The notes under the pieces: model-generated
Databases searched by the model: none
What the model was told of the DNA's origin: nothing
What the model saw: only the letters and a program-made list of their open reading frames with translations
Position numbers and translations under genes: made by a program
Shown here: piece by piece, positions 1,275-10,591 of the stretch
Position numbering within the stretch: the stretch's first letter is position 1
Layout: every line of letters begins with the position of its first letter
Source: a virus
Taxonomy: Duplodnaviria > Heunggongvirae > Uroviricota > Caudoviricetes
DNA length: 10,779 nucleotides
Reading direction: 5' to 3' (one strand)
IMG/VR virus record: IMGVR_UViG_2974696732_000001

Positions 1275-1297
1275 GTCTTTCCCCTTTCGTTGATACG

Positions 1298-1326
1298 AGT
1301 CTAGCAGACTACAAGGACACTGTCTA
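1298..1326 (-). promoter_or_regulatory. Promoter
   Basis: TAGACA-17-TAGACT, extended -10 TGC. Confidence 0.85.
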
Positions 1327-1340
1327 CCCTGCCGGGCGAT

Positions 1341-1386
1341 TGTCCGGGGCCGCCAAAATCCCCCTAAACCCTTCTGGGCTAGGGGG
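1341..1386. repeat. Box plus hairpin module
   Basis: Box TGTCCG-GGG-CCGCCA (1341-1355); hairpin CCCCTA..TAGGGG (1361-1385). Confidence 0.75.
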
Positions 1387-1404
1387 ACTGGCGTGCCTAC
1401 TGCA

Positions 1405-2418
1405 TTACGCAGCGAGGCTCAGGACCGCCTTACGGATGCGGTTCTTTTCGGCGTTGACCACCGGGTCGAAACCGCTGGCAGCGATGAACAGGTTGTCCAC
1501 GTTGCCACCACGGGGCATCCGGTACCAGTCGATACGCTCGGTCAGAGCGTTCAGGGCACCGGCCATGGTTCCGGCCAGAGATTGAGTGGTCTTCGGACCG
1601 GGGGCCGTGTCGGTGAAGATGCCCATGAGCAGGTCACGCTTCGACTCCCACTTGACCATGCTGCCCTTGACATCCTTCTCGGGCTTGGGGTAGAGAGCCT
1701 GAACGATGCTGTCGAACTGGTCGCGCGTGCACTTGGCAGCGGCCAGCGTGGTCAGCTCACGCTCCAGCTCATCCCCGTACGCGAAGGTGATGTTCAGGGC
1801 CTCACGCGCGGCAGCCATGCGACCCTCGATGGTCTGCGTGTGGCGCATCTTGAACTGCTGCTTCACACCGTTACGGAGTGCGAAGTTCAGCGTGTTCTGA
1901 CACACGACACGGACCGGAGTGACGGACGCCTGAACGGCCACGGAACCATCGTGAGAGGTGTTGACCAGCAGATAGAGCTTGGTCACGTCGTCGTCACCGA
2001 TGACGATGTCACGAGAGATGGACAGAGACCCGAAGACCACACGCCCATCCTTGATGGAACCGGCAGTCTCCCAGGTTCCACCACCCGCGAGGATGCCGTC
2101 ACCGAAGCCGAACAGGTCTTCGTTCTGGACGACCTTGTACCGCTCGCCCACCGTGGCCAGAACGTCGTTCCGACCGGTGAAGGGGTTGGTACGGACCACC
2201 ATGTGCGGCTCGGTCACGAAGTCATAGGAGTCCGAGACCAGACCCATGATTTCCTTGACCGACTCCAGACGGACGTCCCAGCCCTTGAGGTGAGCCAGAG
2301 ACAGCATCTCGTCGGTGGTCAGCTCTCCCTCGAACACGGTTCCGAGGTTGTGCCACGCGGGCTCGTTGCGAGAAGCGAACGCGACCTGACCCTTGGAACC
2401 AATCTCAAGACCGTGCAT
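1405..2418 (-). CDS. DUF932 / TIGR03299 phage-plasmid-like protein, 337 aa
   Basis: Start moved to ATG 2418 (RBS AGGAGG). Family motifs recognised: PAWHNLGTV, LATVGERYKVVQN, WETAGSIKDGRVVF, LLVNTSHDGS, TPVRVVCQNTL, MRHT. Confidence 0.85.
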   Translation of the reverse strand: MHGLEIGSKGQVAFASRNEPAWHNLGTVFEGELTTDEMLSLAHLKGWDVRLESVKEIMGLVSDSYDFVTEPHMVVRTNPFTGRNDVLATVGERYKVVQNEDLFGFGDGILAGGGTWETAGSIKDGRVVFGSLSISRDIVIGDDDVTKLYLLVNTSHDGSVAVQASVTPVRVVCQNTLNFALRNGVKQQFKMRHTQTIEGRMAAAREALNITFAYGDELERELTTLAAAKCTRDQFDSIVQALYPKPEKDVKGSMVKWESKRDLLMGIFTDTAPGPKTTQSLAGTMAGALNALTERIDWYRMPRGGNVDNLFIAASGFDPVVNAEKNRIRKAVLSLAA

Positions 2419-2476
2419 GTTGTGCCTCCTAGGCAGATTGGTGTAAGGGCTGGTTTCCCTGCCCTTCGATGTCTCT

Positions 2477-2506
2477 AGTCTAGCAGTAAGCAAGGGTGGA
2501 TGTCTA
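2477..2506 (-). promoter_or_regulatory. Promoter
   Basis: TAGACA-18-TAGACT, extended -10 TGC. Confidence 0.8.
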
Positions 2507-2525
2507 CCCACACTGCCGGGCTCGA

Positions 2526-2592
2526 TGTCCATAATGTCCGATTTGCCGGTTGGCCGGGCCGGACACACCGAAGCCCCCTCCGGAGAGGGGGC
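2526..2592. repeat. Half-site array plus box plus hairpin module
   Basis: Half-sites at 2526, 2535, 2544; box TGGCCG-GGC-CGGACA (2551-2565); hairpin GCCCCCTC-CGGA-GAGGGGGC (2573-2592). Confidence 0.85.
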
Positions 2593-2613
2593 AGAGTGCG
2601 AGTCTTAGGAGAC

Positions 2614-3060
2614 TCAGTAGGCCGCGTCCAGCAGGGCACGCTCCCAGTCGGCCAGGTACATGCCGTTCAGCTTGGCCACGTAGGCGTCCACGATGTCCTT
2701 GGAGTCCTTGAGACCCAGACCCGTCTTCTCGCGGAGCTGCTTGATGCACTGAATCTTCTTGTGGGAACCGACCTCACGAACGATGTCCTTGACCAGCTCC
2801 TCACCCTGCGCCTTGACGCGCTTCTCGATGTCCCGGAGACGGGTCAGCTCCCAGCTCGTGGGCTGCTCGGCGTCGGCCTTGCCGGAGGCGTAGCCGTTCT
2901 TGTGGCCCTCGTTGTAGCCCTTGTCCTCGGCCACCCGCTGGACCTCGATGTGGTGGTCCATCATGCGACGGGCCAGACGCATCGCCTGGTCGAAGCTCAT
3001 GTGCGGCTGCTCGTCGTGCAGCATGACCAGGTAGACGGCGAGGTTGACGTTGGCGCTCAT
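2614..3060 (-). CDS. Protein with ribosomal bL12 (L7/L12) C-terminal-like segment, 148 aa
   Basis: Residues 101-125 KKIQCIKQLREKTGLGLKDSKDIVD match the bL12 CTD helix pair; RBS GGAG; high-GC3 codons. Confidence 0.8.
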   Translation of the reverse strand: MSANVNLAVYLVMLHDEQPHMSFDQAMRLARRMMDHHIEVQRVAEDKGYNEGHKNGYASGKADAEQPTSWELTRLRDIEKRVKAQGEELVKDIVREVGSHKKIQCIKQLREKTGLGLKDSKDIVDAYVAKLNGMYLADWERALLDAAY

Positions 3061-3106
3061 GTTAGTCTCCGTTTCTCAGGGGGTCCGTCCCCCTTTCGAT
3101 GTTCTA

Positions 3107-3136
3107 AGTCTACACGATGACAGGGACAAGGGTCAA
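3107..3136 (-). promoter_or_regulatory. Promoter
   Basis: TTGACC-18-TAGACT. Confidence 0.85.
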
Positions 3137-3157
3137 CACCGCCTGTGTGCTGATTTT

Positions 3158-3196
3158 TGTCCGGGCCCGACACGGGCCCCAGAAGTCAAGGGCCCG
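3158..3196. repeat. Box plus hairpin module
   Basis: Box TGTCCG-GGC-CCGACA (3158-3172); hairpin CGGGCCC-N10-GGGCCCG (3173-3196). Confidence 0.85.
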
Positions 3197-3202
3197 GTAG
3201 GG

Positions 3203-3538
3203 TCAAGGGTTCGTGTGTCCCCTTTTCAGTAGTATCTGTTCGATGACGAATTTGGAATCCATCACACGATTGAATTCGTCATCTGAGCGACTTTCCGTTC
3301 TTCCTGCCCACGCATTGAGCAGAGAGATGATGAATTGAAACATCACCGCTTGCACAGGCTCAGGGTAGGTAGAAAGGAGGTAGGCGAATGCATGGGGGTC
3401 GAAAGACCGTTTGTCCATTTCATCGATGAGCTTATTCGCCAGACGCTCATACGATGTGGGACGTGGTGTTACGAGTCGCGCACCCTCATACATGTCAGGT
3501 GCGATGATGCTTGTTCGTTTGAAGGGACTACGCGCCAC
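3203..3538 (-). CDS. Hypothetical protein, about 111 aa
   Basis: Probable GTG start at 3538 after GGGGGAGAG, overlapping the stop of 3528..3695; ATG 3493 is an alternative. The listed 3664 start overlaps another gene. Confidence 0.7.
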   Translation of the reverse strand: MARSPFKRTSIIAPDMYEGARLVTPRPTSYERLANKLIDEMDKRSFDPHAFAYLLSTYPEPVQAVMFQFIISLLNAWAGRTESRSDDEFNRVMDSKFVIEQILLKRGHTNP

Positions 3539-3695
3539 CCTCTCCCCCAAAATCCTGCGTTGTACCGTAGCCGTCTGAGACACTGACAGACAGGCCCAGC
3601 ACCTTTGCCATGAACTCAGCCGTAGCTGTGGCAAAGGGCCAGGCACTGTCGTGAGCGTCATCATCAGGCGTGTCGATTTCGATGATGACTGACAT
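3528..3695 (-). CDS. Hypothetical acidic protein, 55 aa
   Basis: Hand translation MSVIIEIDTPDDDAHDSAWPFATATAEFMAKVLGLSVSVSDGYGTTQDFGGEGGA*; RBS TAGGATAGGA next to the upstream stop; fills the operon gap. Not in ORF track. Confidence 0.75.
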   Translation of the reverse strand: MSVIIEIDTPDDDAHDSAWPFATATAEFMAKVLGLSVSVSDGYGTTQDFGGEGGA

Positions 3696-3704
3696 GTTCC
3701 TATC

Positions 3705-4223
3705 CTATCGCGCGTGAACCTCTACGTCCATCCCGAGCACCACCGGGGAGCCACAGCCGCAGTGCGACAGGCTGTAACCGCACTTGCACACCTCGCGCTC
3801 CGAGAGACGGATACGCTTGTTGCCGTACCAAGCGGTGTACTCCGTACGGGGCGAACGGGTCGGGTTGGCGTGCGGACGGACATCCTTGCCCGTCACCTTG
3901 ACGTGGACGCCGGGCGCAGCGGGCTTGACCTCCGGGTTGTCCGCCTTGTAAGCGGCCAGCACCTCAGCGGAGAGACGACCACGGGCCGAAACGGTCATGC
4001 CCTTGGAAGTGGCCCACGCACGGACCGCCTTCGCATCGAACTGTCCGGCCTTGGGAGCGGCCTTGACGACCTTGCGCGGAGTGGCGTCGGTGTCGGTGAA
4101 GACCTTGCCCGACTTCTCAGCCTCCGCGATGGCCTCGTATGCGGCAGCGCTCATCCGGCCACGGGACTCCTTGGCCAGGCCCAGAGAGACAGCGTACGCG
4201 CGACGGGTCATGTTGACGTTCAT
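3705..4223 (-). CDS. lsr2: Lsr2-like DNA-binding protein, 172 aa
   Basis: Residues 62-94 FDAKAVRAWATSKGMTVSARGRLSAEVLAAYKA match the Lsr2 C-terminal RGR (AT-hook-like) domain. A second RGR module lies at residues ~5-35 and a Cys cluster at 146-157. RBS GAGGGAAGG. Confidence 0.85.
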   Translation of the reverse strand: MNVNMTRRAYAVSLGLAKESRGRMSAAAYEAIAEAEKSGKVFTDTDATPRKVVKAAPKAGQFDAKAVRAWATSKGMTVSARGRLSAEVLAAYKADNPEVKPAAPGVHVKVTGKDVRPHANPTRSPRTEYTAWYGNKRIRLSEREVCKCGYSLSHCGCGSPVVLGMDVEVHAR

Positions 4224-4250
4224 GGGGTTTCCTTCCCTCGGTGTGCACTC

Positions 4251-4279
4251 AGTCTATCGGATTGAAGGCGGAGAGGCAA
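4251..4279 (-). promoter_or_regulatory. Inner promoter of lsr2-like operon
   Basis: TTGCCT-17-TAGACT. Confidence 0.65.
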
Positions 4280-4320
4280 GCCCCGGTGCAGAGGTTGGTT
4301 TCCCTCCCCTTCATGTCTCT

Positions 4321-4350
4321 AGTATAGAGGACGTAACAGGGTCATGTCTA
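4321..4350 (-). promoter_or_regulatory. Outer promoter of lsr2-like operon
   Basis: TAGACA-18-TATACT. Confidence 0.8.
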
Positions 4351-4360
4351 CAGCCTAGAA

Positions 4361-4416
4361 TGTCCGTTTTGTCCGATATGCCCGTTGTCCGGGCCCGACA
4401 TGCCCCCGAAGGGGCA
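4361..4416. repeat. Half-site array plus box plus hairpin module
   Basis: Half-sites at 4361, 4370, 4379; box TGTCCG-GGC-CCGACA (4386-4400); hairpin TGCCCC-CGAA-GGGGCA (4401-4416). Confidence 0.9.
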
Positions 4417-4421
4417 AGGGG

Positions 4422-5156
4422 CTAAGCCTTCCTGCGCTTAGGAACCTTAGAGGCGAATCGGATATCCGCCTTACCAAAGATGCAAAGGCCACACGTCACA
4501 CATGCGCCTCCATCCTTAGTGATAAGGGGAATGCGCTTGGCATTCTCAGGGCAGATAGCGCCAGGCTTACCAGTTTCGGTAAGCATGAATTCCTTGCCCT
4601 TTTCGTGAGTCTCGTCAAGGTAGGCAAGACGCACAGACGGATATTCCTTTTGCGTTTCCAGCGCCTTTTCCTTGTTCTCACTGTCTACACTGAGATACAC
4701 AGAGAGATTGGGCAGACCGTAGATGAATCCCACGTACTCGAAAGAGCGCGTGTAAATCCAGAATTGCACATCCGGAAAGGATTCACAGGTCATTTCGATG
4801 GCCTCTGCATAGGTGGCAGAGAAAATGTCACCATCTGCGTGCCAGCGGAATACCTTGGGAACGTTGTGCTTTTCGCATTCCTCTCGGAACTCACTCACCA
4901 TTTCGGCAAGCAAGTAAACCATTCGAATGAGGCTTGCGTCTTTCAGCAATTCCCAATTGTGCAGGGCAAGGTCACGGAATGCCGGGTATTGCTTTTCCAG
5001 CTTACCGGCATAGCAGACCGTCTCACACACGCCGGTCGCGCCAGGGCAGGAATACGCCTTGCCACTGGGCAGGGAGAATGCGTTTTTGATGAGAGACTGA
5101 GTGCCAGCACCGTTTGCACGATTGGCAGTCTTACGGTCGTGCGAGCGCTTGAGCAT
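4422..5156 (-). CDS. GP88-like Cys-rich (putative Fe-S, radical-SAM-like) phage protein, 244 aa
   Basis: Start moved to ATG 5156 (RBS GAAAGGA). Motifs FSLPSGKAYSCPGATGVCETVCYA, FRWHADGDIFS, WIYTRS, NLSVYLSVD, CPEN..ACVTCGLC. Confidence 0.75.
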   Translation of the reverse strand: MLKRSHDRKTANRANGAGTQSLIKNAFSLPSGKAYSCPGATGVCETVCYAGKLEKQYPAFRDLALHNWELLKDASLIRMVYLLAEMVSEFREECEKHNVPKVFRWHADGDIFSATYAEAIEMTCESFPDVQFWIYTRSFEYVGFIYGLPNLSVYLSVDSENKEKALETQKEYPSVRLAYLDETHEKGKEFMLTETGKPGAICPENAKRIPLITKDGGACVTCGLCIFGKADIRFASKVPKRRKA

Positions 5157-5182
5157 GACAGTCCTTTCGTTGACGTAAGTCG

Positions 5183-5211
5183 AGTCTATCAGAGACAGGC
5201 TACGTAAACAA
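5183..5211 (-). promoter_or_regulatory. Promoter
   Basis: TTGTTT-17-TAGACT, extended -10 TGA. Confidence 0.7.
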
Positions 5212-5221
5212 GCCCTCAAAA

Positions 5222-5278
5222 TGTCCGTTTTGCCCGATGTCCGGGGCGGCCAAAGGCCCCCTCCAAACGGAGGGGGCC
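5222..5278. repeat. Half-site array plus box plus hairpin module
   Basis: Half-sites at 5222, 5231; box TGTCCG-GGG-CGGCCA (5238-5252); 10-bp stem GGCCCCCTCC-AAAC-GGAGGGGGCC (5255-5278), TTT after it on the minus strand. Confidence 0.85.
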
Positions 5279-5298
5279 AAGTGGGTTGAACTGGTGAC

Positions 5299-5472
5299 TC
5301 ACTCGGAGTCGGAAGGAGCGAACTCGCCCTGCTCGAACGCGATGTCGAGGAAGCGCTGCGCCTGCTCGCTGTCCAGGTGGGCGATGGCCTCGTTCACGAG
5401 GGTCTGCCGGGTGCTGGCCTTGAGCGGGGTGTTGGCGAAGGAACGGGCGATGGTGTCGAGGACGAGCTGCAT
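5299..5472 (-). CDS. Hypothetical protein, 57 aa
   Basis: Hand translation MQLVLDTIARSFANTPLKASTRQTLVNEAIAHLDSEQAQRFLDIAFEQGEFAPSDSE*; RBS AGAAGGAG; 54 of 57 codons end in G/C. Not in ORF track. Confidence 0.9.
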   Translation of the reverse strand: MQLVLDTIARSFANTPLKASTRQTLVNEAIAHLDSEQAQRFLDIAFEQGEFAPSDSE

Positions 5473-5518
5473 GGTGATTCTCCTTCTCTAGGGGGTGTTT
5501 CCCCCTTTCGATACCCTA

Positions 5519-5548
5519 AGTCTACACGACGCCTAGGGCTGTGTGCAA
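5519..5548 (-). promoter_or_regulatory. Promoter
   Basis: TTGCAC-18-TAGACT. Confidence 0.8.
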
Positions 5549-5569
5549 GCCTGAATCTGAGGTGATTTT

Positions 5570-5603
5570 TGTCCGGCCCGGACACAGACCCCCGAAGGGG
5601 CCC
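5570..5603. repeat. Box plus hairpin module
   Basis: Perfect box TGTCCG-GCC-CGGACA (5570-5584); hairpin CCCC-CGAA-GGGG (5589-5600), extended by G-U pairs only on the minus strand. Confidence 0.9.
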
Positions 5604-5607
5604 GGTG

Positions 5608-5667
5608 TCAGAAGAGAATGAGCAGAATGAACAGGACTGCGATGAGCCACACATACCCATCACGCAT
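5608..5667 (-). CDS. 19-aa hydrophobic micropeptide (single TM-like)
   Basis: MRDGYVWLIAVLFILLILF*; RBS GGAGGT inside the upstream ORF; start overlaps upstream stop; stop just before the hairpin module. Confidence 0.6.
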   Translation of the reverse strand: MRDGYVWLIAVLFILLILF

Positions 5668-5737
5668 TCTCGCACACCTCCCGGTACCAAGCGTAGTGCG
5701 TGTAGGGGTAGAAGTGAAGCCATTCCACGAAGTACAT
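5660..5737 (-). CDS. 25-aa aromatic-rich micropeptide
   Basis: MYFVEWLHFYPYTHYAWYREVCENA*; RBS AGGAGT overlapping the TAG of the upstream gene. Confidence 0.6.
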   Translation of the reverse strand: MYFVEWLHFYPYTHYAWYREVCENA

Positions 5738-5744
5738 GACACTC

Positions 5745-6044
5745 CTAGAAGAGTTCGGGTCCGGACTCGCTGTCTTCCGTCCAGTCCTCAGTATACTCGA
5801 TGAACTCGACGTTCAGCAACCACGCGATAAGAACTCGGTGGTGTCCGTTGAAAACGGTGTTCGACTCCACCATGTAGATGATGGGGTCAAGGATGCCCTT
5901 GGAGCAAGATTCAACAAACTCAGGGTTTCCCTCAAAGAGGTCGTTGAACTTCTCTTCGAACATCTGCCAGGTGGTGTGACCCTTGGCCTCAGCATCATTG
6001 AAGATAGCCGACTCAATCAGCTTCGCAACAGATACCTTGGCCAT
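5745..6044 (-). CDS. ParB/Srx N-terminal-like domain protein, 99 aa
   Basis: FVESCSKGILDPIIYMVESNTVFNGHHRVLIAWLLN fits the ParBc pattern G..xPI...[DN]GHHR..A..L; no HTH; RBS AAGGAGG. Confidence 0.65.
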   Translation of the reverse strand: MAKVSVAKLIESAIFNDAEAKGHTTWQMFEEKFNDLFEGNPEFVESCSKGILDPIIYMVESNTVFNGHHRVLIAWLLNVEFIEYTEDWTEDSESGPELF

Positions 6045-6070
6045 GTCGCCCTCCTTGGCTTGATAGGTCT

Positions 6071-6099
6071 AGTCTACATGAGTACAAGGGCTGTGTCTA
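6071..6099 (-). promoter_or_regulatory. Promoter
   Basis: TAGACA-17-TAGACT. Confidence 0.85.
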
Positions 6100-6113
6100 G
6101 TGCCGGGCCAAAT

Positions 6114-6152
6114 TGTCCGGGGCGGCCAAATGGGGCCCCGGAGGGCCCCATT
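6114..6152. repeat. Box plus hairpin module
   Basis: Box TGTCCG-GGG-CGGCCA (6114-6128); 10-bp stem AATGGGGCCC-CGGA-GGGCCCCATT (6129-6152). Confidence 0.9.
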
Positions 6153-6155
6153 GGG

Positions 6156-6428
6156 TCAGTCTTCGCTGGTGTCCTTCTGGCTCACCAGCTTCGCACGGCC
6201 GAGCAGAGAGGCGTCGGCCTCCTTCCACTTCTTGACCGGCTTGCCGACTCGCACACGGGGGAACCGAGCGATGATGGCACGCGCACGGGTCTCGTCCGCC
6301 TCCAGGATGTCGAACCGCTGGAAGGGGGCACGGGTGGCGATGGGGCCGAACTCGATGTCCACCCCCTGGACAATCATGGCCACGCGGAGGGAGAGGGCGT
6401 CACGGACGGGAACGATACCGGCAATCAT
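6156..6428 (-). CDS. Hypothetical protein, 90 aa
   Basis: RBS AGGAGT; high-GC3 codons; stop adjacent to the hairpin module. Confidence 0.85.
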   Translation of the reverse strand: MIAGIVPVRDALSLRVAMIVQGVDIEFGPIATRAPFQRFDILEADETRARAIIARFPRVRVGKPVKKWKEADASLLGRAKLVSQKDTSED

Positions 6429-6491
6429 GTGAACTCCTGAGAGTCGAAGTAAGCTGGGGTATTCAGTTATCAGAGACTTTGGCAGGAAGGG

Positions 6492-6513
6492 AAAAACCTC
6501 ACGTTGCGAGGCC
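6492..6513 (-). terminator. Terminator or attenuator-like hairpin in the leader of 6156..6428
   Basis: Minus strand GGCCTCGC-AAC-GTGAGGTT followed by a U run (AAAAA at 6492-6496); G-U pairs work only on the minus strand. Confidence 0.5.
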
Positions 6514-6542
6514 CTGTGGCCTGTCCCCTTGTGCTTAGCTAG

Positions 6543-6572
6543 AGTCTATCAGCCTGACCTAGTTGCAGTCAA
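6543..6572 (-). promoter_or_regulatory. Promoter overlapping the 3' end of 6559..6741
   Basis: TTGACT-18-TAGACT, extended -10 TGA; no box upstream. Confidence 0.75.
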
Positions 6573-6741
6573 CCAGGTATTCGGGCTCGTCGTCCTCGGA
6601 GACCGTCCAGATGTCGGCCAGCCAACCCTTACGGATGACACCGGCCGTCTCGAACTTGTGCGGCTCAGCGGACTCACGAACCGCATCTGCGTACTCCTCT
6701 TCGGAGATGATGCTGTAACCCTCGGGAATCTCGAACGTCAT
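6559..6741 (-). CDS. Hypothetical acidic protein, 60 aa
   Basis: RBS GAGAGGAG; own promoter upstream. Confidence 0.85.
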   Translation of the reverse strand: MTFEIPEGYSIISEEEYADAVRESAEPHKFETAGVIRKGWLADIWTVSEDDEPEYLVDCN

Positions 6742-6786
6742 GACCGCTCCTCTCGTTGGGAGGCTTCCCTCCCTCTCGATGTTCTA

Positions 6787-6815
6787 AGTCTACATGACCG
6801 ATGGGACAGGCGCAA
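6787..6815 (-). promoter_or_regulatory. Promoter
   Basis: TTGCGC-17-TAGACT. Confidence 0.75.
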
Positions 6816-6843
6816 CAACCAATATTCGTTAGTCTGCCTAAGT

Positions 6844-6872
6844 TGTCCGGGGCCGACAGGCCCCGAAGGGCC
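6844..6872. repeat. Box plus hairpin module
   Basis: Box TGTCCG-GGG-CCGACA (6844-6858); hairpin GGCCC-CGAA-GGGCC (6859-6872). Confidence 0.9.
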
Positions 6873-6877
6873 CTTTG

Positions 6878-7033
6878 TCAGTCTCCCATGTCGTCCAGAT
6901 GAGCATCCGGAGCGGGCTCGAACTCAAGGAAGGTGTCTTCGAAAATCACCATCCATGCGTAGCCCTCACGATTGTCCGGATTGCACTTGCCACGGTGCAT
7001 GTCACCCATGGCAGCGCCACATTCGATGCACAT
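6878..7033 (-). CDS. Small CxxC-containing acidic protein, 51 aa
   Basis: Hand translation MCIECGAAMGDMHRGKCNPDNREGYAWMVIFEDTFLEFEPAPDAHLDDMGD*; TGATG coupling to the upstream gene. Not in ORF track. Confidence 0.8.
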   Translation of the reverse strand: MCIECGAAMGDMHRGKCNPDNREGYAWMVIFEDTFLEFEPAPDAHLDDMGD

Positions 7034-7257
7034 CAGCGCCCCAGGTTGTAGAGAGAGGCAACCAGCATCTCAACTCGGTTGACTCGAATCGAAAGGCGGG
7101 AGCCGTTCGCGTCGGTGAGGGTGAACAGCTTCATGTCGTTGTGAACCGCTTCGGTCCATGCCAGATTGATGGCATCGGGCGTGGTGTCCTTGATGTAGGC
7201 CACCAGCGTCTTGTCACGGTCGTGGAAGTACAGCTCAACACGAACATCGTTCAGCAT
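7033..7257 (-). CDS. Hypothetical protein, 74 aa
   Basis: RBS GAGAGGA; own promoter. Confidence 0.85.
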   Translation of the reverse strand: MLNDVRVELYFHDRDKTLVAYIKDTTPDAINLAWTEAVHNDMKLFTLTDANGSRLSIRVNRVEMLVASLYNLGR

Positions 7258-7302
7258 GGTGCATCCTCTCTTCCGGGAGCTTTTCTCCCTTTCGATGCTC
7301 TA

Positions 7303-7331
7303 ACTCTACAGCATGTGGGAGGCAGATACAA
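7303..7331 (-). promoter_or_regulatory. Promoter
   Basis: TTGTAT-17-TAGAGT. Confidence 0.7.
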
Positions 7332-7345
7332 CCCCAATTTGAAAG

Positions 7346-7378
7346 TGTCCGGGCCCGACACGGGCCCCGAAGGGCCCG
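7346..7378. repeat. Box plus hairpin module
   Basis: Box TGTCCG-GGC-CCGACA (7346-7360); hairpin CGGGCCC-CGAA-GGGCCCG (7361-7378). Confidence 0.9.
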
Positions 7379-7389
7379 GCGGAAAGGTG

Positions 7390-7674
7390 TTACTTCTTGG
7401 CCTTGGTGCGACGGTTGCTGTGGTTGCCGTTCATGAGGGCGGTGAAGTCCAGCATGATGTTCTGCTTGAAGTTGGTCGCTCCGTGGAACTTGCCGTCCTG
7501 GTCACGGATGACGATGCGGACCTCGGTGGAGTCGCTGCCCGGAGTGGTCTTCCAGGTCTCCAGCCGGATGCTGTAGACGGACTTGGAACCCTTGACCTTG
7601 AAGCCCTCGGAGATGGTGACGGAGGAGACGATGTTGTGGTTGACGTCGGTCTTCTTGGCGAGGGTAACGGCCAT
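7390..7674 (-). CDS. Hypothetical basic protein, 94 aa
   Basis: RBS GAGGAG; all 11 Lys codons are AAG; basic C-terminal tail RRTKAKK. Confidence 0.9.
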   Translation of the reverse strand: MAVTLAKKTDVNHNIVSSVTISEGFKVKGSKSVYSIRLETWKTTPGSDSTEVRIVIRDQDGKFHGATNFKQNIMLDFTALMNGNHSNRRTKAKK

Positions 7675-7728
7675 TTGAAGCTCCTCAGAGTCTCGCTTGG
7701 GGGTTCCTTCCCCCTTGCTGATAGCTAA

Positions 7729-7758
7729 AGTCTACACGACCCAAGGGACATCGCGCAA
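7729..7758 (-). promoter_or_regulatory. Promoter
   Basis: TTGCGC-18-TAGACT. Confidence 0.75.
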
Positions 7759-7770
7759 CCCCTGAATTTA

Positions 7771-7814
7771 TGTCCTTTTTGTCCGTCCGGGCCGGACAGG
7801 GCCCCGGAGGGCCC
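7771..7814. repeat. Half-site array plus box plus hairpin module
   Basis: Half-sites at 7771, 7780; box CGTCCG-GGC-CGGACA (7784-7798); hairpin GGGCCC-CGGA-GGGCCC (7799-7814). Confidence 0.9.
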
Positions 7815-7819
7815 GTCCA

Positions 7820-8161
7820 TCACTCGGAGGGGAAAGACTCAGCGAAGAACTTGGCACGCTCCCTCTTGGCACGGCTGTGAGCACCGTCACGGCTTGCGTA
7901 CTCCTGGAACTCCGACACGGTGTCGATGGTGAGATGTCCGTTTTCGTCCAGCTTGGCCACACGAACGGTGTAGAGTCGGGGAGACATGTCGTCGAAGCGC
8001 TCGGAGGAGACGAAGAACATCGTCTTCCCCTGCAAGTCGCTGTAGCACATCTCGGAGATGCGGGAGTTGAAGAAGCGCAGGGTGGCCCGGTCGAAGAAGT
8101 GGTTGTTCTGGTCCTTGGCGATGGCCTTGACGTCTTCCAGAGAGAACATCTGAGTGCGCAT
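7820..8161 (-). CDS. Conserved-looking phage hypothetical protein, 113 aa
   Basis: Start moved to ATG 8161 (RBS GAGAGGA). Motifs HFFDRATLRFFNSRI, FFVSSE, RLYTVR resemble a widespread phage family; family ID not certain. Confidence 0.85.
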   Translation of the reverse strand: MRTQMFSLEDVKAIAKDQNNHFFDRATLRFFNSRISEMCYSDLQGKTMFFVSSERFDDMSPRLYTVRVAKLDENGHLTIDTVSEFQEYASRDGAHSRAKRERAKFFAESFPSE

Positions 8162-8192
8162 TGTGTGGGTTCCTCTCCCTCGGTGTAAGTAG

Positions 8193-8222
8193 AGTCTAAC
8201 ACAGCTCAAGGACAGGCCACAA
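8193..8222 (-). promoter_or_regulatory. Promoter
   Basis: TTGTGG-18-TAGACT, extended -10 TGT. Confidence 0.7.
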
Positions 8223-8247
8223 CACCTACCGGGCCTTTTTCTGAAAG

Positions 8248-8278
8248 TGTCCGGCCCCGACAGGGGCCCGAAGGCCCC
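8248..8278. repeat. Box plus hairpin module
   Basis: Box TGTCCG-GCC-CCGACA (8248-8262); hairpin GGGGCC-CGAA-GGCCCC (8263-8278). Confidence 0.9.
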
Positions 8279-8283
8279 TTCTG

Positions 8284-8607
8284 TCAGGTGAGCTGAGCCA
8301 GGAGAGAACTGATTTCCTGACGGAGTTCGGACTGAGGCCGGTAGCCTCGCTCCGCCTTCAACTGACGCTCGAAGTAGGCGCGAAGTTCGGTCTTGTTGTA
8401 CGGACCGTACGCCTGGTCAGCGTAGTCGATGTCCTCGAACGGAATGGGGCAGGAGCAACCGGAGTCGCTTGCCACGTAGTACCGCCCTCGGGCCTCCTTC
8501 CACACTCGCGTCTCGTTGAACTGGTAGGATTCGTGGTCCCAGTCGAACCCACCGACGTAGGTCAGGCTGTCCAGCGAAATACGCTCGGGCTTCGAAAGGT
8601 CGGTCAT
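8284..8607 (-). CDS. Actinophage hypothetical protein with DSGCSCP motif, 107 aa
   Basis: RBS GAGGAGG overlapping the upstream TGA; YYVASDSGCSCPIPFED motif recalled from actinophage proteins of unknown function. Confidence 0.85.
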   Translation of the reverse strand: MTDLSKPERISLDSLTYVGGFDWDHESYQFNETRVWKEARGRYYVASDSGCSCPIPFEDIDYADQAYGPYNKTELRAYFERQLKAERGYRPQSELRQEISSLLAQLT

Positions 8608-8616
8608 GGTTCCTCC

Positions 8617-8760
8617 TCAGATGTCTTTACGCTGAACTTTATCACACTTGGAGCACTGGCGCACCTGAATCAGCGCCTTCCAGGTACCGAGCTTGGGGAA
8701 GAGAGGGGAGTCGAACGTTCCCACCATCTGCTTCCAGTTGGACCACTTGTGGAAACACAT
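8617..8760 (-). CDS. Small putative zinc-binding protein, 47 aa
   Basis: Start moved to ATG 8760 (RBS GGAGG): MCFHKW...QVRQCSKCDKVQRKDI. Confidence 0.8.
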   Translation of the reverse strand: MCFHKWSNWKQMVGTFDSPLFPKLGTWKALIQVRQCSKCDKVQRKDI

Positions 8761-8785
8761 CCCGTCCTCCGTTTTCGTTAGCTCT

Positions 8786-8814
8786 AGTCTACAGGGCCAA
8801 TTTTTGAGTCGCAA
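8786..8814 (-). promoter_or_regulatory. Promoter
   Basis: TTGCGA-17-TAGACT. Confidence 0.75.
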
Positions 8815-8820
8815 CCCCAA

Positions 8821-8874
8821 AGTCCAGATTTTTAGTCGCAGATTTTTAGTCCGGGGCGGACAGGCCCGAAGGCC
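8821..8874. repeat. Tandem repeat plus box plus hairpin module
   Basis: AGTCCAGATTTTT / AGTCGCAGATTTTT (8821-8847); box AGTCCG-GGG-CGGACA (8848-8862); hairpin GGCC-CGAA-GGCC (8863-8874). Confidence 0.85.
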
Positions 8875-8881
8875 CTTCCGC

Positions 8882-9196
8882 TCACTCCCAAGGCTTGTAG
8901 TCACTCCAGTCCGCACCCTCGCGCGGCTCGATGAGGATTTCGATGGTGTCGCCCAGACGGTGATTCACGCTGTACAGAGAACGGGAAGAACCCTGGTAGC
9001 GACGCTGCGCCTTGGCCCACTTGACCAGCTTCTCAGCCTGCTTGGCCGAACGACAGGGCCATGCCTCGATGCACAGACCGTAGTTGAACCACCATCCGCC
9101 CTCTTCGCTGCCTCCCCATGCACGCTGCAATTCGTAGACGTTCACCCAGTGCTTGTTCCGACGACGCTGGCCCATACGGAGTGACTTCTTCGCCAT
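8882..9196 (-). CDS. Phage hypothetical protein with GGSEEGGWW motif, 104 aa
   Basis: RBS AAGGAGG; own promoter. Confidence 0.85.
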   Translation of the reverse strand: MAKKSLRMGQRRRNKHWVNVYELQRAWGGSEEGGWWFNYGLCIEAWPCRSAKQAEKLVKWAKAQRRYQGSSRSLYSVNHRLGDTIEILIEPREGADWSDYKPWE

Positions 9197-9219
9197 GTTT
9201 CCTCCTTGGTGATGACCTA

Positions 9220-9248
9220 AGTCTAACAGACGCCTAGGACAGACTCAA
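9220..9248 (-). promoter_or_regulatory. Promoter
   Basis: TTGAGT-17-TAGACT, extended -10 TGT. Confidence 0.8.
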
Positions 9249-10048: not shown

Positions 10049-10092
10049 GGTAACGCTTAGGTAAAGCTTCCAAGATTCTTGCTGAATTGGGG

Positions 10093-10120
10093 TTGCATGG
10101 GTGTCCGGGGCGGGTATGCT
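10093..10120 (+). promoter_or_regulatory. Rightward promoter with an embedded box
   Basis: TTGCAT-16-TATGCT; box TGTCCG-GGG-CGGGTA (10102-10116) fills the spacer and overlaps the -10. The 16-bp spacer is suboptimal. Confidence 0.55.
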
Positions 10121-10153
10121 GTAAGCACAGCAACGAACAAGGGAGACAGGGAC

Positions 10154-10591
10154 ATGAACACCACCACCGCTCACCAGTGCAAGTACCAGAATGAAACCCA
10201 GGTCAACGCCCGTATCCGTAGGCAGGTGCTCGCTACGGTGCTGTACCTGGCCACCCTTACGGGTGACAGTGACGGTGCTACGTGGGCCAATTGTGTGGGG
10301 TGTGGGGAGCGTGCCCACGTGGGAGGTACCCCTAGGGCTATGGACACGTTCAACCTGGGGCACGTGCTGGCAGACGCTGAGGGTGGGATGTACTGCCCTT
10401 GCAACCTGCTCCCCCTGTGCAGGCAGTGCAACGCTGACATGGGTAAGGAGACCCTTACTGATGTGCTTGTTCCCCGTTACGACAATCGGGAAATGTGGAA
10501 CGGTAAGGTTCTGCCCGACCCTGGCACGGTGGCCGCTAAGCCTGAGAGCAACCGTGGACGTGCCCGCTGGAACGCCCCTGTGACCGTCTGA
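10154..10591 (+). CDS. HNH endonuclease-like protein, 145 aa
   Basis: CVGC...GHVLADAEGG...NLLPLCRQCNADMG matches the zinc-binding HNH pattern; start moved to ATG 10154 (RBS AAGGGAG / AGGGA). Confidence 0.85.
   Translation: MNTTTAHQCKYQNETQVNARIRRQVLATVLYLATLTGDSDGATWANCVGCGERAHVGGTPRAMDTFNLGHVLADAEGGMYCPCNLLPLCRQCNADMGKETLTDVLVPRYDNREMWNGKVLPDPGTVAAKPESNRGRARWNAPVTV

What the first reader, a model, noticed from the sequence alone, without database searches (positions are those of the whole stretch)
2614..3060. Phage protein carrying the translation-factor-binding surface of ribosomal protein bL12
Seen: residues 101-125 KKIQCIKQLREKTGLGLKDSKDIVD. From memory, Streptomyces bL12 reads about [25 protein letters not shown]. 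Established: the K-x3-IK-x2-R and downstream K residues of the bL12 CTD contact EF-Tu, EF-G, IF2 and RF3, and bL12-like genes are known in some phages. Here only the helix pair is recognisable, fused to an unrelated N-terminus with GxxxG repeats (KGYNEGHKNGYASGKA), and the L10-binding dimerisation domain is absent. Inference: a decoy or adaptor for translational GTPases, or a mimic that affects defence systems monitoring translation.
Basis: partly seen in the sequence, partly recalled or inferred. Interest (0 to 1): 0.7.

Follow-up and report, generated by a model that had tools for sequence, protein, structure and literature searches.

The report
Phage protein with bL12 helix pair
An early gene in the terminal repeat of a Streptomyces phage encodes a small helical protein whose best-conserved part copies only the two helices that ribosomal protein bL12 uses to catch translation factors; the likeness is real and already annotated in a sister phage, but its function is untested.

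Summary
The 148-aa ORF lies on the minus strand at 2614-3060, and the quoted residues are exact. It matches Pfam Ribosomal_L12 above the curated cut-off (E 9e-8), but only at profile positions 5-37 of 67. A family profile aligns to true bL12 at 98.4% probability over 36 columns, which are helices 4-5, the published docking site for translational GTPases. Every conserved residue of that surface is kept. This stretch is also the most conserved part of the family (77% against 36-47% identity).

The bL12 N-terminal domain, the hinge and the second half of the C-terminal domain are absent. It is therefore not a ribosomal protein.

The gene has its own host-type promoter and sits in the direct terminal repeat of a cluster BE phage, so there are two copies per genome.

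The same short module occurs in over a thousand bacterial protein clusters, usually in 2-6 tandem copies.

The likeness is already published for a sister phage (Riptide, 2025), the class was described in 2019, and this scan noted the family on other DNA.

GTPase docking off the ribosome is the best reading (about 0.4) but is untested. Many orthologs, though not this protein, end in the host SSB tip DEPPF.

The parts
2614..3060 (-). CDS of the 148-aa protein (P0002), stop codon included. It equals gene 4 of Streptomyces phage PinkiePie, annotated as a hypothetical protein.
   Evidence: phrog_5819 E 1.6e-74
2680..2781 (-). bL12-like stretch, residues 94-127. It covers a remnant of strand beta1, then helix 4 (102-113) and the start of helix 5 (117-133).
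   Evidence: Pfam PF00542 positions 5-37/67; hhalign 92-127; helices from AF2
2635..2808 (-). Compact C-terminal helical module, residues 85-142. Its helices are 85-97, 102-113, 117-133 and 138-142. The last helix carries the near-invariant L-A-D-W-E-R motif.
   Evidence: AF2 on residues 84-148: pLDDT 91, pTM 0.76; conservation
2875..2922 (-). Conserved Y-x2-G-x3-G-x3-G motif (residues 47-62) inside a long predicted helix. It is a possible helix-packing or oligomerisation surface (inference).
   Evidence: Y49, G56 and G60 invariant, G52 near-invariant; helix 23-64
2926..3060 (-). Variable N-terminal helical region, residues 1-45. It has no detectable relation to the bL12 N-terminal domain.
   Evidence: hhalign probability 0.3%; no PF16320 hit in 15 members; 36% mean identity
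3107..3136 (-). Sigma-70-type promoter, TTGACC-18 nt-TAGACT, 47 nt upstream of the start codon. Its -10 hexamer and leader are part of a 38-nt element repeated 9 times in the window.
   Evidence: family D1
3067..3070 (-). Ribosome-binding site GGAG, 6 nt before the ATG.
   Evidence: read directly from the sequence
3158..3196 (-). GC-rich hairpin (7-bp stem) followed by a 15-nt near-palindrome, upstream of the promoter. This is the end of the preceding cassette.
   Evidence: families D2 and D4
2574..2591 (-). GC-rich hairpin (7-bp stem, 4-nt loop) 23 nt after the stop codon, without a T-run. It is a candidate terminator or processing site.
   Evidence: read; the consensus terminator scan did not call it

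Best explanation
This is an early, host-polymerase-transcribed phage protein. Its compact C-terminal helical module is derived from helices 4-5 of the bL12 C-terminal domain. Shown: the sequence relation, its limits, the conservation, and the gene's setting. Inferred: the module still presents the basic, partly hydrophobic face that bL12 uses to dock the G domains of IF2, EF-Tu, EF-G and RF3. It lacks both the uL10-binding domain and the helix-6/beta-sheet half that meets uL11, so it would do this off the ribosome. The likely outcome is competition with the stalk for factors, or re-routing of factors, during host takeover. The N-terminal helices with the G-x3-G zipper probably oligomerise the protein, so that several weak docking modules act together. 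That would parallel the 4-6 bL12 copies on the stalk and the 2-6 tandem modules of the bacterial relatives.
For: The match covers only helices 4-5 and is significant. These helices are the mapped GTPase-binding site (PMC6753160). Mapped to E. coli numbering (query residue n corresponds to E. coli n-37), K65, V/I66, I69, K70, R73, T76, G77, G79, L80, K81, E/D82, K84 and D85 are kept at 80-100% in 20 family modules and are invariant or near-invariant in A1. This stretch is the most conserved part of the protein, at 77% mean pairwise identity against 36-47% in the three regions before it and 53% in the tail. The helix-4 pattern K-I-x2-I-K-x2-R survives even in the diverged tandem paralogs of sister phages. 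These residues are not needed for folding as such: some repeats of a Nannocystis multi-L12-domain protein have replaced them. The module folds confidently on its own (pLDDT 91), and its helix pair superposes on 1CTF at 0.2 A over 24 columns. The gene has its own promoter in a repeated cassette array inside the terminal repeat, next to Lsr2-like, ParB-nuclease-like and DUF932 genes. It is conserved in all 61 matching cluster BE records. Multivalent display is the rule in cellular relatives: 134 of the 150 best hits carry 2-6 modules.
Against: No binding, expression or phenotype data exist. Single bL12 C-terminal domains bind factors weakly (my own knowledge), and EF-Tu is very abundant, so simple titration is implausible for EF-Tu. 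Half of the parent domain is gone. I could not inspect the model coordinates, so I cannot say whether I103 and I106 stay exposed or are buried by helix 85-97 or by the L-A-D-W-E-R helix. The helix pair also resembles the HU/IHF N-terminal pair at about 1 A, so it is a common shape. Many orthologs end in the host SSB tip, which points to DNA-side partners. The gene neighbourhoods of cellular relatives show no link to translation. Oligomerisation is only inferred.
Confidence: 0.4

Rival explanations
1. The helix pair is only a stable helical hairpin inherited from bL12 and reused as a generic scaffold or protein-protein contact. Its partners have nothing to do with translational GTPases, and the conservation reflects the packing of the new mini-bundle.
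For: Only 36 columns are shared. The whole-module fold search returns generic three-helix bundles at Z up to 6.3, and HU/IHF helix pairs fit about as well as bL12. Cellular carriers sit in unrelated contexts: membrane anchors, coiled coils, metabolic neighbours.
Against: The conserved positions are those of the exposed factor-binding face of bL12, including two surface hydrophobics. They are kept across phage paralogs and in 206 cellular modules, whereas other L12-domain repeats lose them and still persist.
Confidence: 0.28
2. It is an adaptor or decoy in DNA metabolism. The family plugs into the host SSB partner network or nucleoid proteins, and the bL12-like hairpin serves another contact.
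For: At least 13 of 29 family members end in x-D-E-P-P-F. That is the tip of Streptomyces SsbA and of mycobacterial SSB (PMC3616714, PMC7847540). No PF00436 SSB was found in the phage record. The neighbours are Lsr2-like and ParB-nuclease-like genes. Three members give weak Bac_DNA_binding hits (E 0.034).
Against: The protein in this window has no such tip: it ends L-L-D-A-A-Y. The tip is the variable part of the family and the bL12-like stretch is the constant part. The HU similarity is not significant.
Confidence: 0.12
3. It is an anti-defence decoy. A free copy of the bL12 docking face soaks up host or immune proteins that must first dock on the stalk, such as stalk-captured ribonucleases of the Cami1 type.
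For: PDB 8PHJ (Cami1 on the 70S ribosome) contains a resolved bL12 C-terminal-domain chain that matches this module. That Cami1 is captured by the stalk is my own recollection of the 2023 paper. The gene lies in an early array of the kind that often holds counter-defence genes.
Against: There is no hit to any PADLOC model. Which face of bL12 such effectors use was not checked. No such system is known in Streptomyces hosts.
Confidence: 0.08
4. It is a true ribosomal-protein substitute that enters the host stalk in place of bL12.
For: Some phage bL12-domain proteins co-purified with 70S ribosomes in E. coli (PMC6375957).
Against: There is no N-terminal dimerisation/uL10-binding domain and no hinge, and only half of the C-terminal domain is present. 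TIGR00855 scores 28.5 bits against a cut-off of 84.4.
Confidence: 0.03

Closest known systems
Bacterial ribosomal protein bL12 (L7/L12), C-terminal domain helices 4-5 (Pfam PF00542; PDB 1CTF, 1DD3, 1RQU)
   Same: There is 47% identity over 36 profile columns. All conserved residues of the basic GTPase-docking face are kept. The predicted helix pair superposes at 0.2-0.4 A.
   Different: It has no N-terminal dimerisation/uL10-binding domain and no hinge. It lacks beta2, helix 6 and beta3, so it has neither the alpha/beta fold nor the helix 4/6 cleft that receives uL11. The beta1 remnant is predicted helical. It is not an equivalog.
Cluster BE orthologs, e.g. Streptomyces phage Riptide genes 258/259 (= 3/4), published as 'ribosomal protein L7/L12, C-terminus domain' (PMC12509530)
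   Same: Same protein family (Riptide gp3 is identical to P0014, 41% identity to this protein). It holds the same position in the terminal repeat and the same architecture.
   Different: Riptide and EGole carry two tandem paralogs, whereas this phage has one. Riptide gp3 ends in the SSB tip x-D-E-P-P-F, whereas this protein ends L-L-D-A-A-Y. The gene is still annotated as hypothetical in PinkiePie.
Phage bL12-domain proteins described by Mizuno et al. 2019 (PMC6375957)
   Same: A bL12 C-terminal-domain match is embedded in an otherwise unrelated phage protein, with the factor-contact residues kept and independent acquisition proposed.
   Different: Those came from podoviruses of Proteobacteria, mostly with the whole domain. 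This one is from a 132-kb actinophage, carries only half of the domain, and sits in an early terminal-repeat cassette.
Stand-alone short L12 helix-pair modules of bacteria (parts of Pfam DUF6793 PF20593 and NCBIfam NF005269; automatically named 'ribosomal protein L7/L12')
   Same: They show the same truncated match (PF00542 positions about 8-38), preceded by a helix, with the same conserved residues.
   Different: Cellular forms are mostly 2-6 tandem copies on P/A/S-rich linkers, often with a membrane anchor or coiled coil. The phage protein has one copy on a helical N-terminus with a glycine motif. None has a tested function.
C-terminal tip of bacterial SSB (Streptomyces SsbA ...DEPPF)
   Same: Many orthologs of this protein end in the same five residues.
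   Different: The protein of this window lacks the tip.

Membership tests
Ribosomal protein bL12 (TIGR00855; PF16320 + PF00542) | N-terminal dimerisation and uL10-binding domain (PF16320) | tested here: not met
   No PF16320 hit in any of 15 family members at E up to 10. hhalign of the N-terminal alignment against true bL12 gives probability 0.3%.
Ribosomal protein bL12 (TIGR00855; PF16320 + PF00542) | Complete alpha/beta C-terminal domain (beta1-a4-a5-beta2-a6-beta3; PF00542 positions 1-67) | tested here: not met
   Only positions 5-37 match. Only 21 residues follow, with no likeness to beta2-a6-beta3. The AF2 models contain no strands.
Ribosomal protein bL12 (TIGR00855; PF16320 + PF00542) | Conserved basic GTPase-docking face on helices 4-5 | tested here: met
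   K102, I103, I106, K107, R110, T113, G114, G116, L117, K118, D119, K121 and D122 correspond to E. coli K65 through D85. They are invariant or near-invariant.
Ribosomal protein bL12 (TIGR00855; PF16320 + PF00542) | Full-length equivalog score | tested here: not met
   TIGR00855 scores 28.5 bits against a cut-off of 84.4.
Ribosomal protein bL12 (TIGR00855; PF16320 + PF00542) | Binding to translational GTPases and presence on the 50S stalk | not testable with these tools
This needs biochemistry.
Phage bL12-domain proteins (Mizuno 2019) | PF00542 match above the gathering cut-off in a phage-encoded, otherwise non-ribosomal protein, with factor-contact residues kept | tested here: met
   32.8 bits against 25.9. 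The window is 100% identical to Streptomyces phage PinkiePie over 2400-3300. Residues as above.
Cluster BE terminal-repeat L12-like family (phrog_5819) | Full-length homology and conserved position in the terminal repeat | tested here: met
   phrog_5819 E 1.6e-74 over residues 2-148. 15 homologs at 38-97% identity. Same place, with two copies per record, in 61 Streptomyces phage records.
Stand-alone short L12 helix-pair modules (DUF6793 / NF005269 type) | Truncated PF00542 match (about 8-38) preceded by a helix, without the second half of the domain | tested here: met
   NF005269 is only weak (19 bits against a cut-off of 90), and DUF6793 was not hit by this protein. The shared feature is therefore the module, not membership of those two families.
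Stand-alone short L12 helix-pair modules (DUF6793 / NF005269 type) | Multivalent display (tandem copies or oligomerisation) | not testable with these tools
   There is one module per chain.
SSB C-terminal tip mimics | Acidic tail ending in the host SSB tip (DEPPF in Streptomyces) | tested here: not met
   This protein ends L-L-D-A-A-Y. At least 13 of 29 relatives end in D-E-P-P-F or a close variant. The host tip is from PMC3616714.

The most novel reading that the evidence does not exclude
Helices 4-5 of bL12 are a portable, free-standing docking module for translational GTPases. Bacteria display it multivalently away from the ribosome. Large Streptomyces phages use it within minutes of infection to capture or re-route host factors, or to decoy stalk-dependent immune effectors. 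In many orthologs it is combined with a copy of the host SSB tip, which would make the family a two-headed mimic linking the translation and replication partner networks.
Probability: 0.15. Interest if true: 0.75.

Novelty: new member of a known kind. Interest (0 to 1): 0.4.

Why it matters
Phage-encoded bL12 domains were reported in 2019, but no function has been shown. This family is a clean minimal case: only the factor-docking helices survive, they are the most conserved part, and the gene sits in a strongly promoted early array of a culturable phage with a tractable host (S. lividans). A simple binding and mutation study could show whether the two helices alone suffice to bind translational GTPases. 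That result would also explain the more than a thousand unstudied bacterial protein clusters built from the same module. The host SSB tip on many orthologs is a second, easily testable lead.

Tried and rejected
1. I suspected that the N-terminal 35 residues were a diverged bL12 N-terminal domain. This is rejected: hhalign probability 0.3%, and no PF16320 hit.
No factor-binding model was attempted either.
3. Foldseek against PDB with the full-length and the C-terminal models gave no match at E <= 0.001, only local helix-pair overlaps. VIA-align wide gave generic three-helix bundles, Z <= 6.3.
4. The Atlas search by features for residues 1-90 gave no usable hit. By structure it gave only generic helical hairpins.
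5. PADLOC gave no hit for this protein, an ortholog or three neighbours.
6. The search for sequencing runs found DNA holders in soil and water metagenomes but no infection transcriptome. Expression timing could therefore not be checked and no reads were laid.
7. Gene neighbourhoods of cellular short-module proteins (Mycolicibacterium, a gammaproteobacterial MAG) showed no link to translation.
8. The uL24-like gene reported for Riptide was sought in PinkiePie with PF17136, and no match was found at E <= 0.01.
9. A literature search for the bL12 residue numbers returned nothing relevant. The residue-level mutagenesis (Kothe 2004, Helgstrand 2007) is therefore cited from my own knowledge and from reference lists.
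11. In a sample of 201 Actinomycetes genomes, 20 of the 185 with a PF00542 match had a second match. This is only a rough frequency: matches are not copy numbers and some are duplicates. The sample included four unpublished genomes (G008, G033, G037, G044), each with a single match, and nothing specific is drawn from them.

Full report
WHAT IS THERE. The finding's coordinates hold a real ORF, but on the minus strand. It runs from 2614 to 3060 and encodes 148 residues. The window is 100% identical over 2400-3300 to Streptomyces phage PinkiePie (cluster BE, 132 kb), where the ORF is gene 4, annotated as a hypothetical protein. A Pfam scan of that whole phage record finds exactly two matches, at 2679-2780 and 124200-124301. 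The gene therefore lies in the roughly 10.8-kb direct terminal repeat and is present twice per genome.

IS THE bL12 LIKENESS REAL? Yes.
- Pfam Ribosomal_L12 (PF00542) scores 32.8 bits (E 9e-8), above its gathering cut-off of 25.9.
- phmmer against all PDB chains returns 14 bL12 chains (E 1e-4 to 3e-2) and nothing else below E 0.3.
- A profile of 15 family members aligns to a profile of 17 true bL12 proteins with 98.4% probability, E 5e-15, and 47% identity over 36 columns.

The match is sharply limited. It covers Pfam positions 5-37 of 67, which are residues 94-127: a remnant of strand beta1, then helix 4 and helix 5. After residue 127 only 21 residues remain, and they show no likeness to beta2, helix 6 or beta3.

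WHAT IS MISSING. None of the 15 members hits the bL12 N-terminal domain model, even at E 10. I briefly suspected that the N-terminal helices were a diverged bL12 N-terminal domain, but profile comparison gives 0.3% probability. The NCBIfam equivalog model for bL12 scores 28.5 bits against a cut-off of 84.4. The protein therefore cannot be filed as a ribosomal protein. It lacks the uL10-binding domain, the hinge and half of the C-terminal domain. That missing half includes helix 6, which forms with helix 4 the cleft that receives uL11 on the ribosome (PMC3505967).

ANATOMY.
- AlphaFold2 on the family alignment gives an all-helical chain with pLDDT 78 and pTM 0.43. Its helices are 7-17, 23-64, 69-97, 102-113, 117-133 and 138-144.
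- Folded alone, residues 84-148 give a confident compact bundle with pLDDT 91 and pTM 0.76. Its helices are 85-97, 102-113, 117-133 and 138-142.
- The helix pair of this bundle superposes on E. coli bL12 (1CTF) at 0.2 A over 24 columns and on T. maritima bL12 at 0.4 A. These local matches are not statistically significant, and the N-terminal helix pair of HU/IHF fits at about 1 A too.
- A whole-module search finds only generic three-helix bundles.
- In the ESM Atlas the nearest shapes are mostly small non-ribosomal proteins that also carry a PF00542 match.
- The long helix 23-64 carries the motif Y49-x2-G52-x3-G56-x3-G60. Y49, G56 and G60 are invariant and G52 nearly so.

THE CONSERVED FACE. 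A paper states that IF2, EF-Tu, EF-G and RF3 bind the bL12 C-terminal domain through a highly conserved, positively charged site in helices 4 and 5 (PMC6753160). Using the PDB alignment (query residue n corresponds to E. coli n-37), the phage residues map as follows:
- K102, I103, I106, K107 and R110 correspond to K65, V66, I69, K70 and R73.
- T113, G114, G116, L117, K118, D119, K121 and D122 correspond to T76, G77, G79, L80, K81, E82, K84 and D85.

All are invariant or nearly so in the family. The stretch 98-127 has 77% mean pairwise identity. The three regions before it have 36-47%, and the C-terminal tail has 53%. The pattern K-I-x2-I-K-x2-R persists even in the diverged second paralogs of sister phages. 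Some repeats of a Nannocystis protein made of full L12 domains have replaced these residues. The residues are therefore not simply required for folding, which argues for a functional constraint on that face.

SETTING. A sigma-70-type promoter (TTGACC, 18 nt, TAGACT) lies at 3136-3107 on the coding strand. The scan found two such sites in this 1-kb stretch against 0.2 expected from shuffles. A GGAG ribosome-binding site lies 6 nt before the ATG. The -10 hexamer and leader belong to a 38-nt element present 9 times in the window. GC hairpins and near-palindromes separate the cassettes. Almost all genes of the repeat run leftward in such cassettes. They include an Lsr2-like protein, a ParB-nuclease-like protein, DUF932 and a GP88-family protein. 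Host-type promoters in a terminal repeat suggest early expression. This is an inference, because no infection transcriptome was found. The family occurs in all 61 matching Streptomyces phage records, always in the repeat. Sister phages such as EGole and Riptide carry two tandem paralogs there, whereas this phage has one.

WIDER RELATIVES. An exhaustive profile-free search of 1.84 billion representatives finds 1265 clusters at E <= 0.001. Apart from the phage family, the best 150 are almost all bacterial proteins with 2-6 copies of the same short module, and 134 of the 150 carry two or more. The copies are separated by P/A/S-rich linkers, and the proteins often carry a membrane helix. Their Pfam matches are cut at the same place, positions about 8-38. 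Other forms exist:
- Mycolicibacterium chromosomes encode 95-100-residue proteins made of a coiled coil, a linker and one module, in addition to their true rplL.
- There are tail-anchored single-module proteins.
- There are proteins built from several complete L12 domains.

Pipelines name these 'ribosomal protein L7/L12'. Pfam DUF6793 and NCBIfam NF005269 include the module. None is characterised. Multivalent display is the shared theme, as on the ribosomal stalk.

A SECOND MOTIF IN ORTHOLOGS. At least 13 of 29 family members, including Riptide gp3 and Angela gp260, end in Y/F-x-D-E-P-P-F or a close variant. DEPPF is the C-terminal tip of Streptomyces coelicolor SsbA, described as essential for its protein contacts (PMC3616714). 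Mycobacterial SSB ends in D-D-E-P-P-F (PMC7847540). No canonical SSB (PF00436) was found in the phage record. The protein of this window lacks the tip and ends L-L-D-A-A-Y. I record this as a lead that opens a DNA-side reading for the family.

HOW IT MOST LIKELY WORKS. My best reading, at confidence about 0.4, is as follows. It is an early protein whose C-terminal bundle still presents the bL12 docking face and engages G domains of translational GTPases away from the ribosome. This would compete with the stalk or re-route factors. The N-terminal helices would assemble several chains so that weak sites add up.
- Shown: homology, its limits, conservation, and the gene's setting.
- Inferred: exposure of the face, binding, oligomerisation, and timing.

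The rivals are:
- a generic helical scaffold with other partners (0.28);
- a DNA-side adaptor, suggested by the SSB tips and the neighbours (0.12);
- a decoy for effectors that dock on the stalk, such as Cami1, whose ribosome complex 8PHJ contains a bL12 C-terminal chain (the biology is from my own knowledge) (0.08);
- true incorporation into the stalk (0.03), which is contradicted by the membership tests.

KNOWN OR NEW. Phage proteins with embedded bL12 domains that keep the factor-contact residues were described in 2019 (PMC6375957). The orthologs in phage Riptide were published in 2025 as 'ribosomal protein L7/L12, C-terminus domain' (PMC12509530). UniProt and JGI name several members likewise. 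This scan had already followed up the family on a sister phage, and had noted the membrane-tethered bacterial modules. The gene is therefore a new member of a known kind.
- the exact limits of the likeness;
- the rejected N-terminal homology;
- the confident stand-alone fold of the module;
- the residue-by-residue conservation across phage, cellular and ribosomal sets;
- the SSB tip in orthologs.

LIMITS. No binding or expression data could be obtained. The tally of second PF00542 matches in Actinomycetes (20 of 185) is rough. It includes four unpublished genomes, from which nothing specific is drawn.

Noticed in passing
relatives P0009-P0016, P0024, P0036, P0041, P0070, P0084; L090:2498-2986 (Riptide gp3): Many orthologs of this protein end in Y/F-x-D-E-P-P-F, the C-terminal tip of Streptomyces SsbA and mycobacterial SSB. 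The protein in this window ends L-L-D-A-A-Y instead. No PF00436 SSB was found in the PinkiePie record.
   Followed up: partly
window 1282-9241: A 38-nt element holding the -10 hexamer and leader recurs 9 times, together with GC hairpins and near-palindromes of the TGTCCGGGCCCGACA type. The terminal repeat is therefore an array of similarly promoted leftward cassettes.
   Followed up: partly
L091:3404-3844 (EGole gp4); L090:3111-3521 (Riptide gp4): Sister phages carry a second, diverged tandem paralog. Its module keeps K-I-x2-I-K-x2-R but has lost the G-L-G-L-K turn. This phage has only one gene of the family per repeat.
   Followed up: partly
L013:2797-3087; L004, L009-L016, L020: Mycolicibacterium chromosomes encode conserved 95-100-residue proteins made of a coiled coil, a P/A linker and one short L12 helix-pair module. 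They lie far from rplL, between a prolyl-oligopeptidase-like and a monooxygenase-like gene.
   Followed up: partly
L005:546-809; L006:2935-3204; L029:2773-3237: Small tail-anchored proteins of Limnocylindria, Pedosphaera and an unnamed metagenome chromosome carry one or two short modules followed by a C-terminal membrane helix.
   Followed up: no
window 3705-4223 (-): This is an Lsr2-like protein. The Lsr2 DNA-binding domain lies at residues 63-94, followed by a Cys-rich C-terminus (C-x-C-G...C-G-C-G). It is annotated as an Lsr2-like DNA bridging protein in PinkiePie.
   Followed up: no
window 1405-2568 (-) and 4422-5219 (-): The first is a DUF932 protein (E 1e-46) directly downstream of the L12-like gene. 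The second is a GP88-family protein (PF17338, E 8e-57). Both are of unknown function and both are conserved in the repeat.
   Followed up: no
window 10079-10591 (+): This is the only rightward gene, an HNH endonuclease, at the inner edge of the terminal repeat.
   Followed up: no
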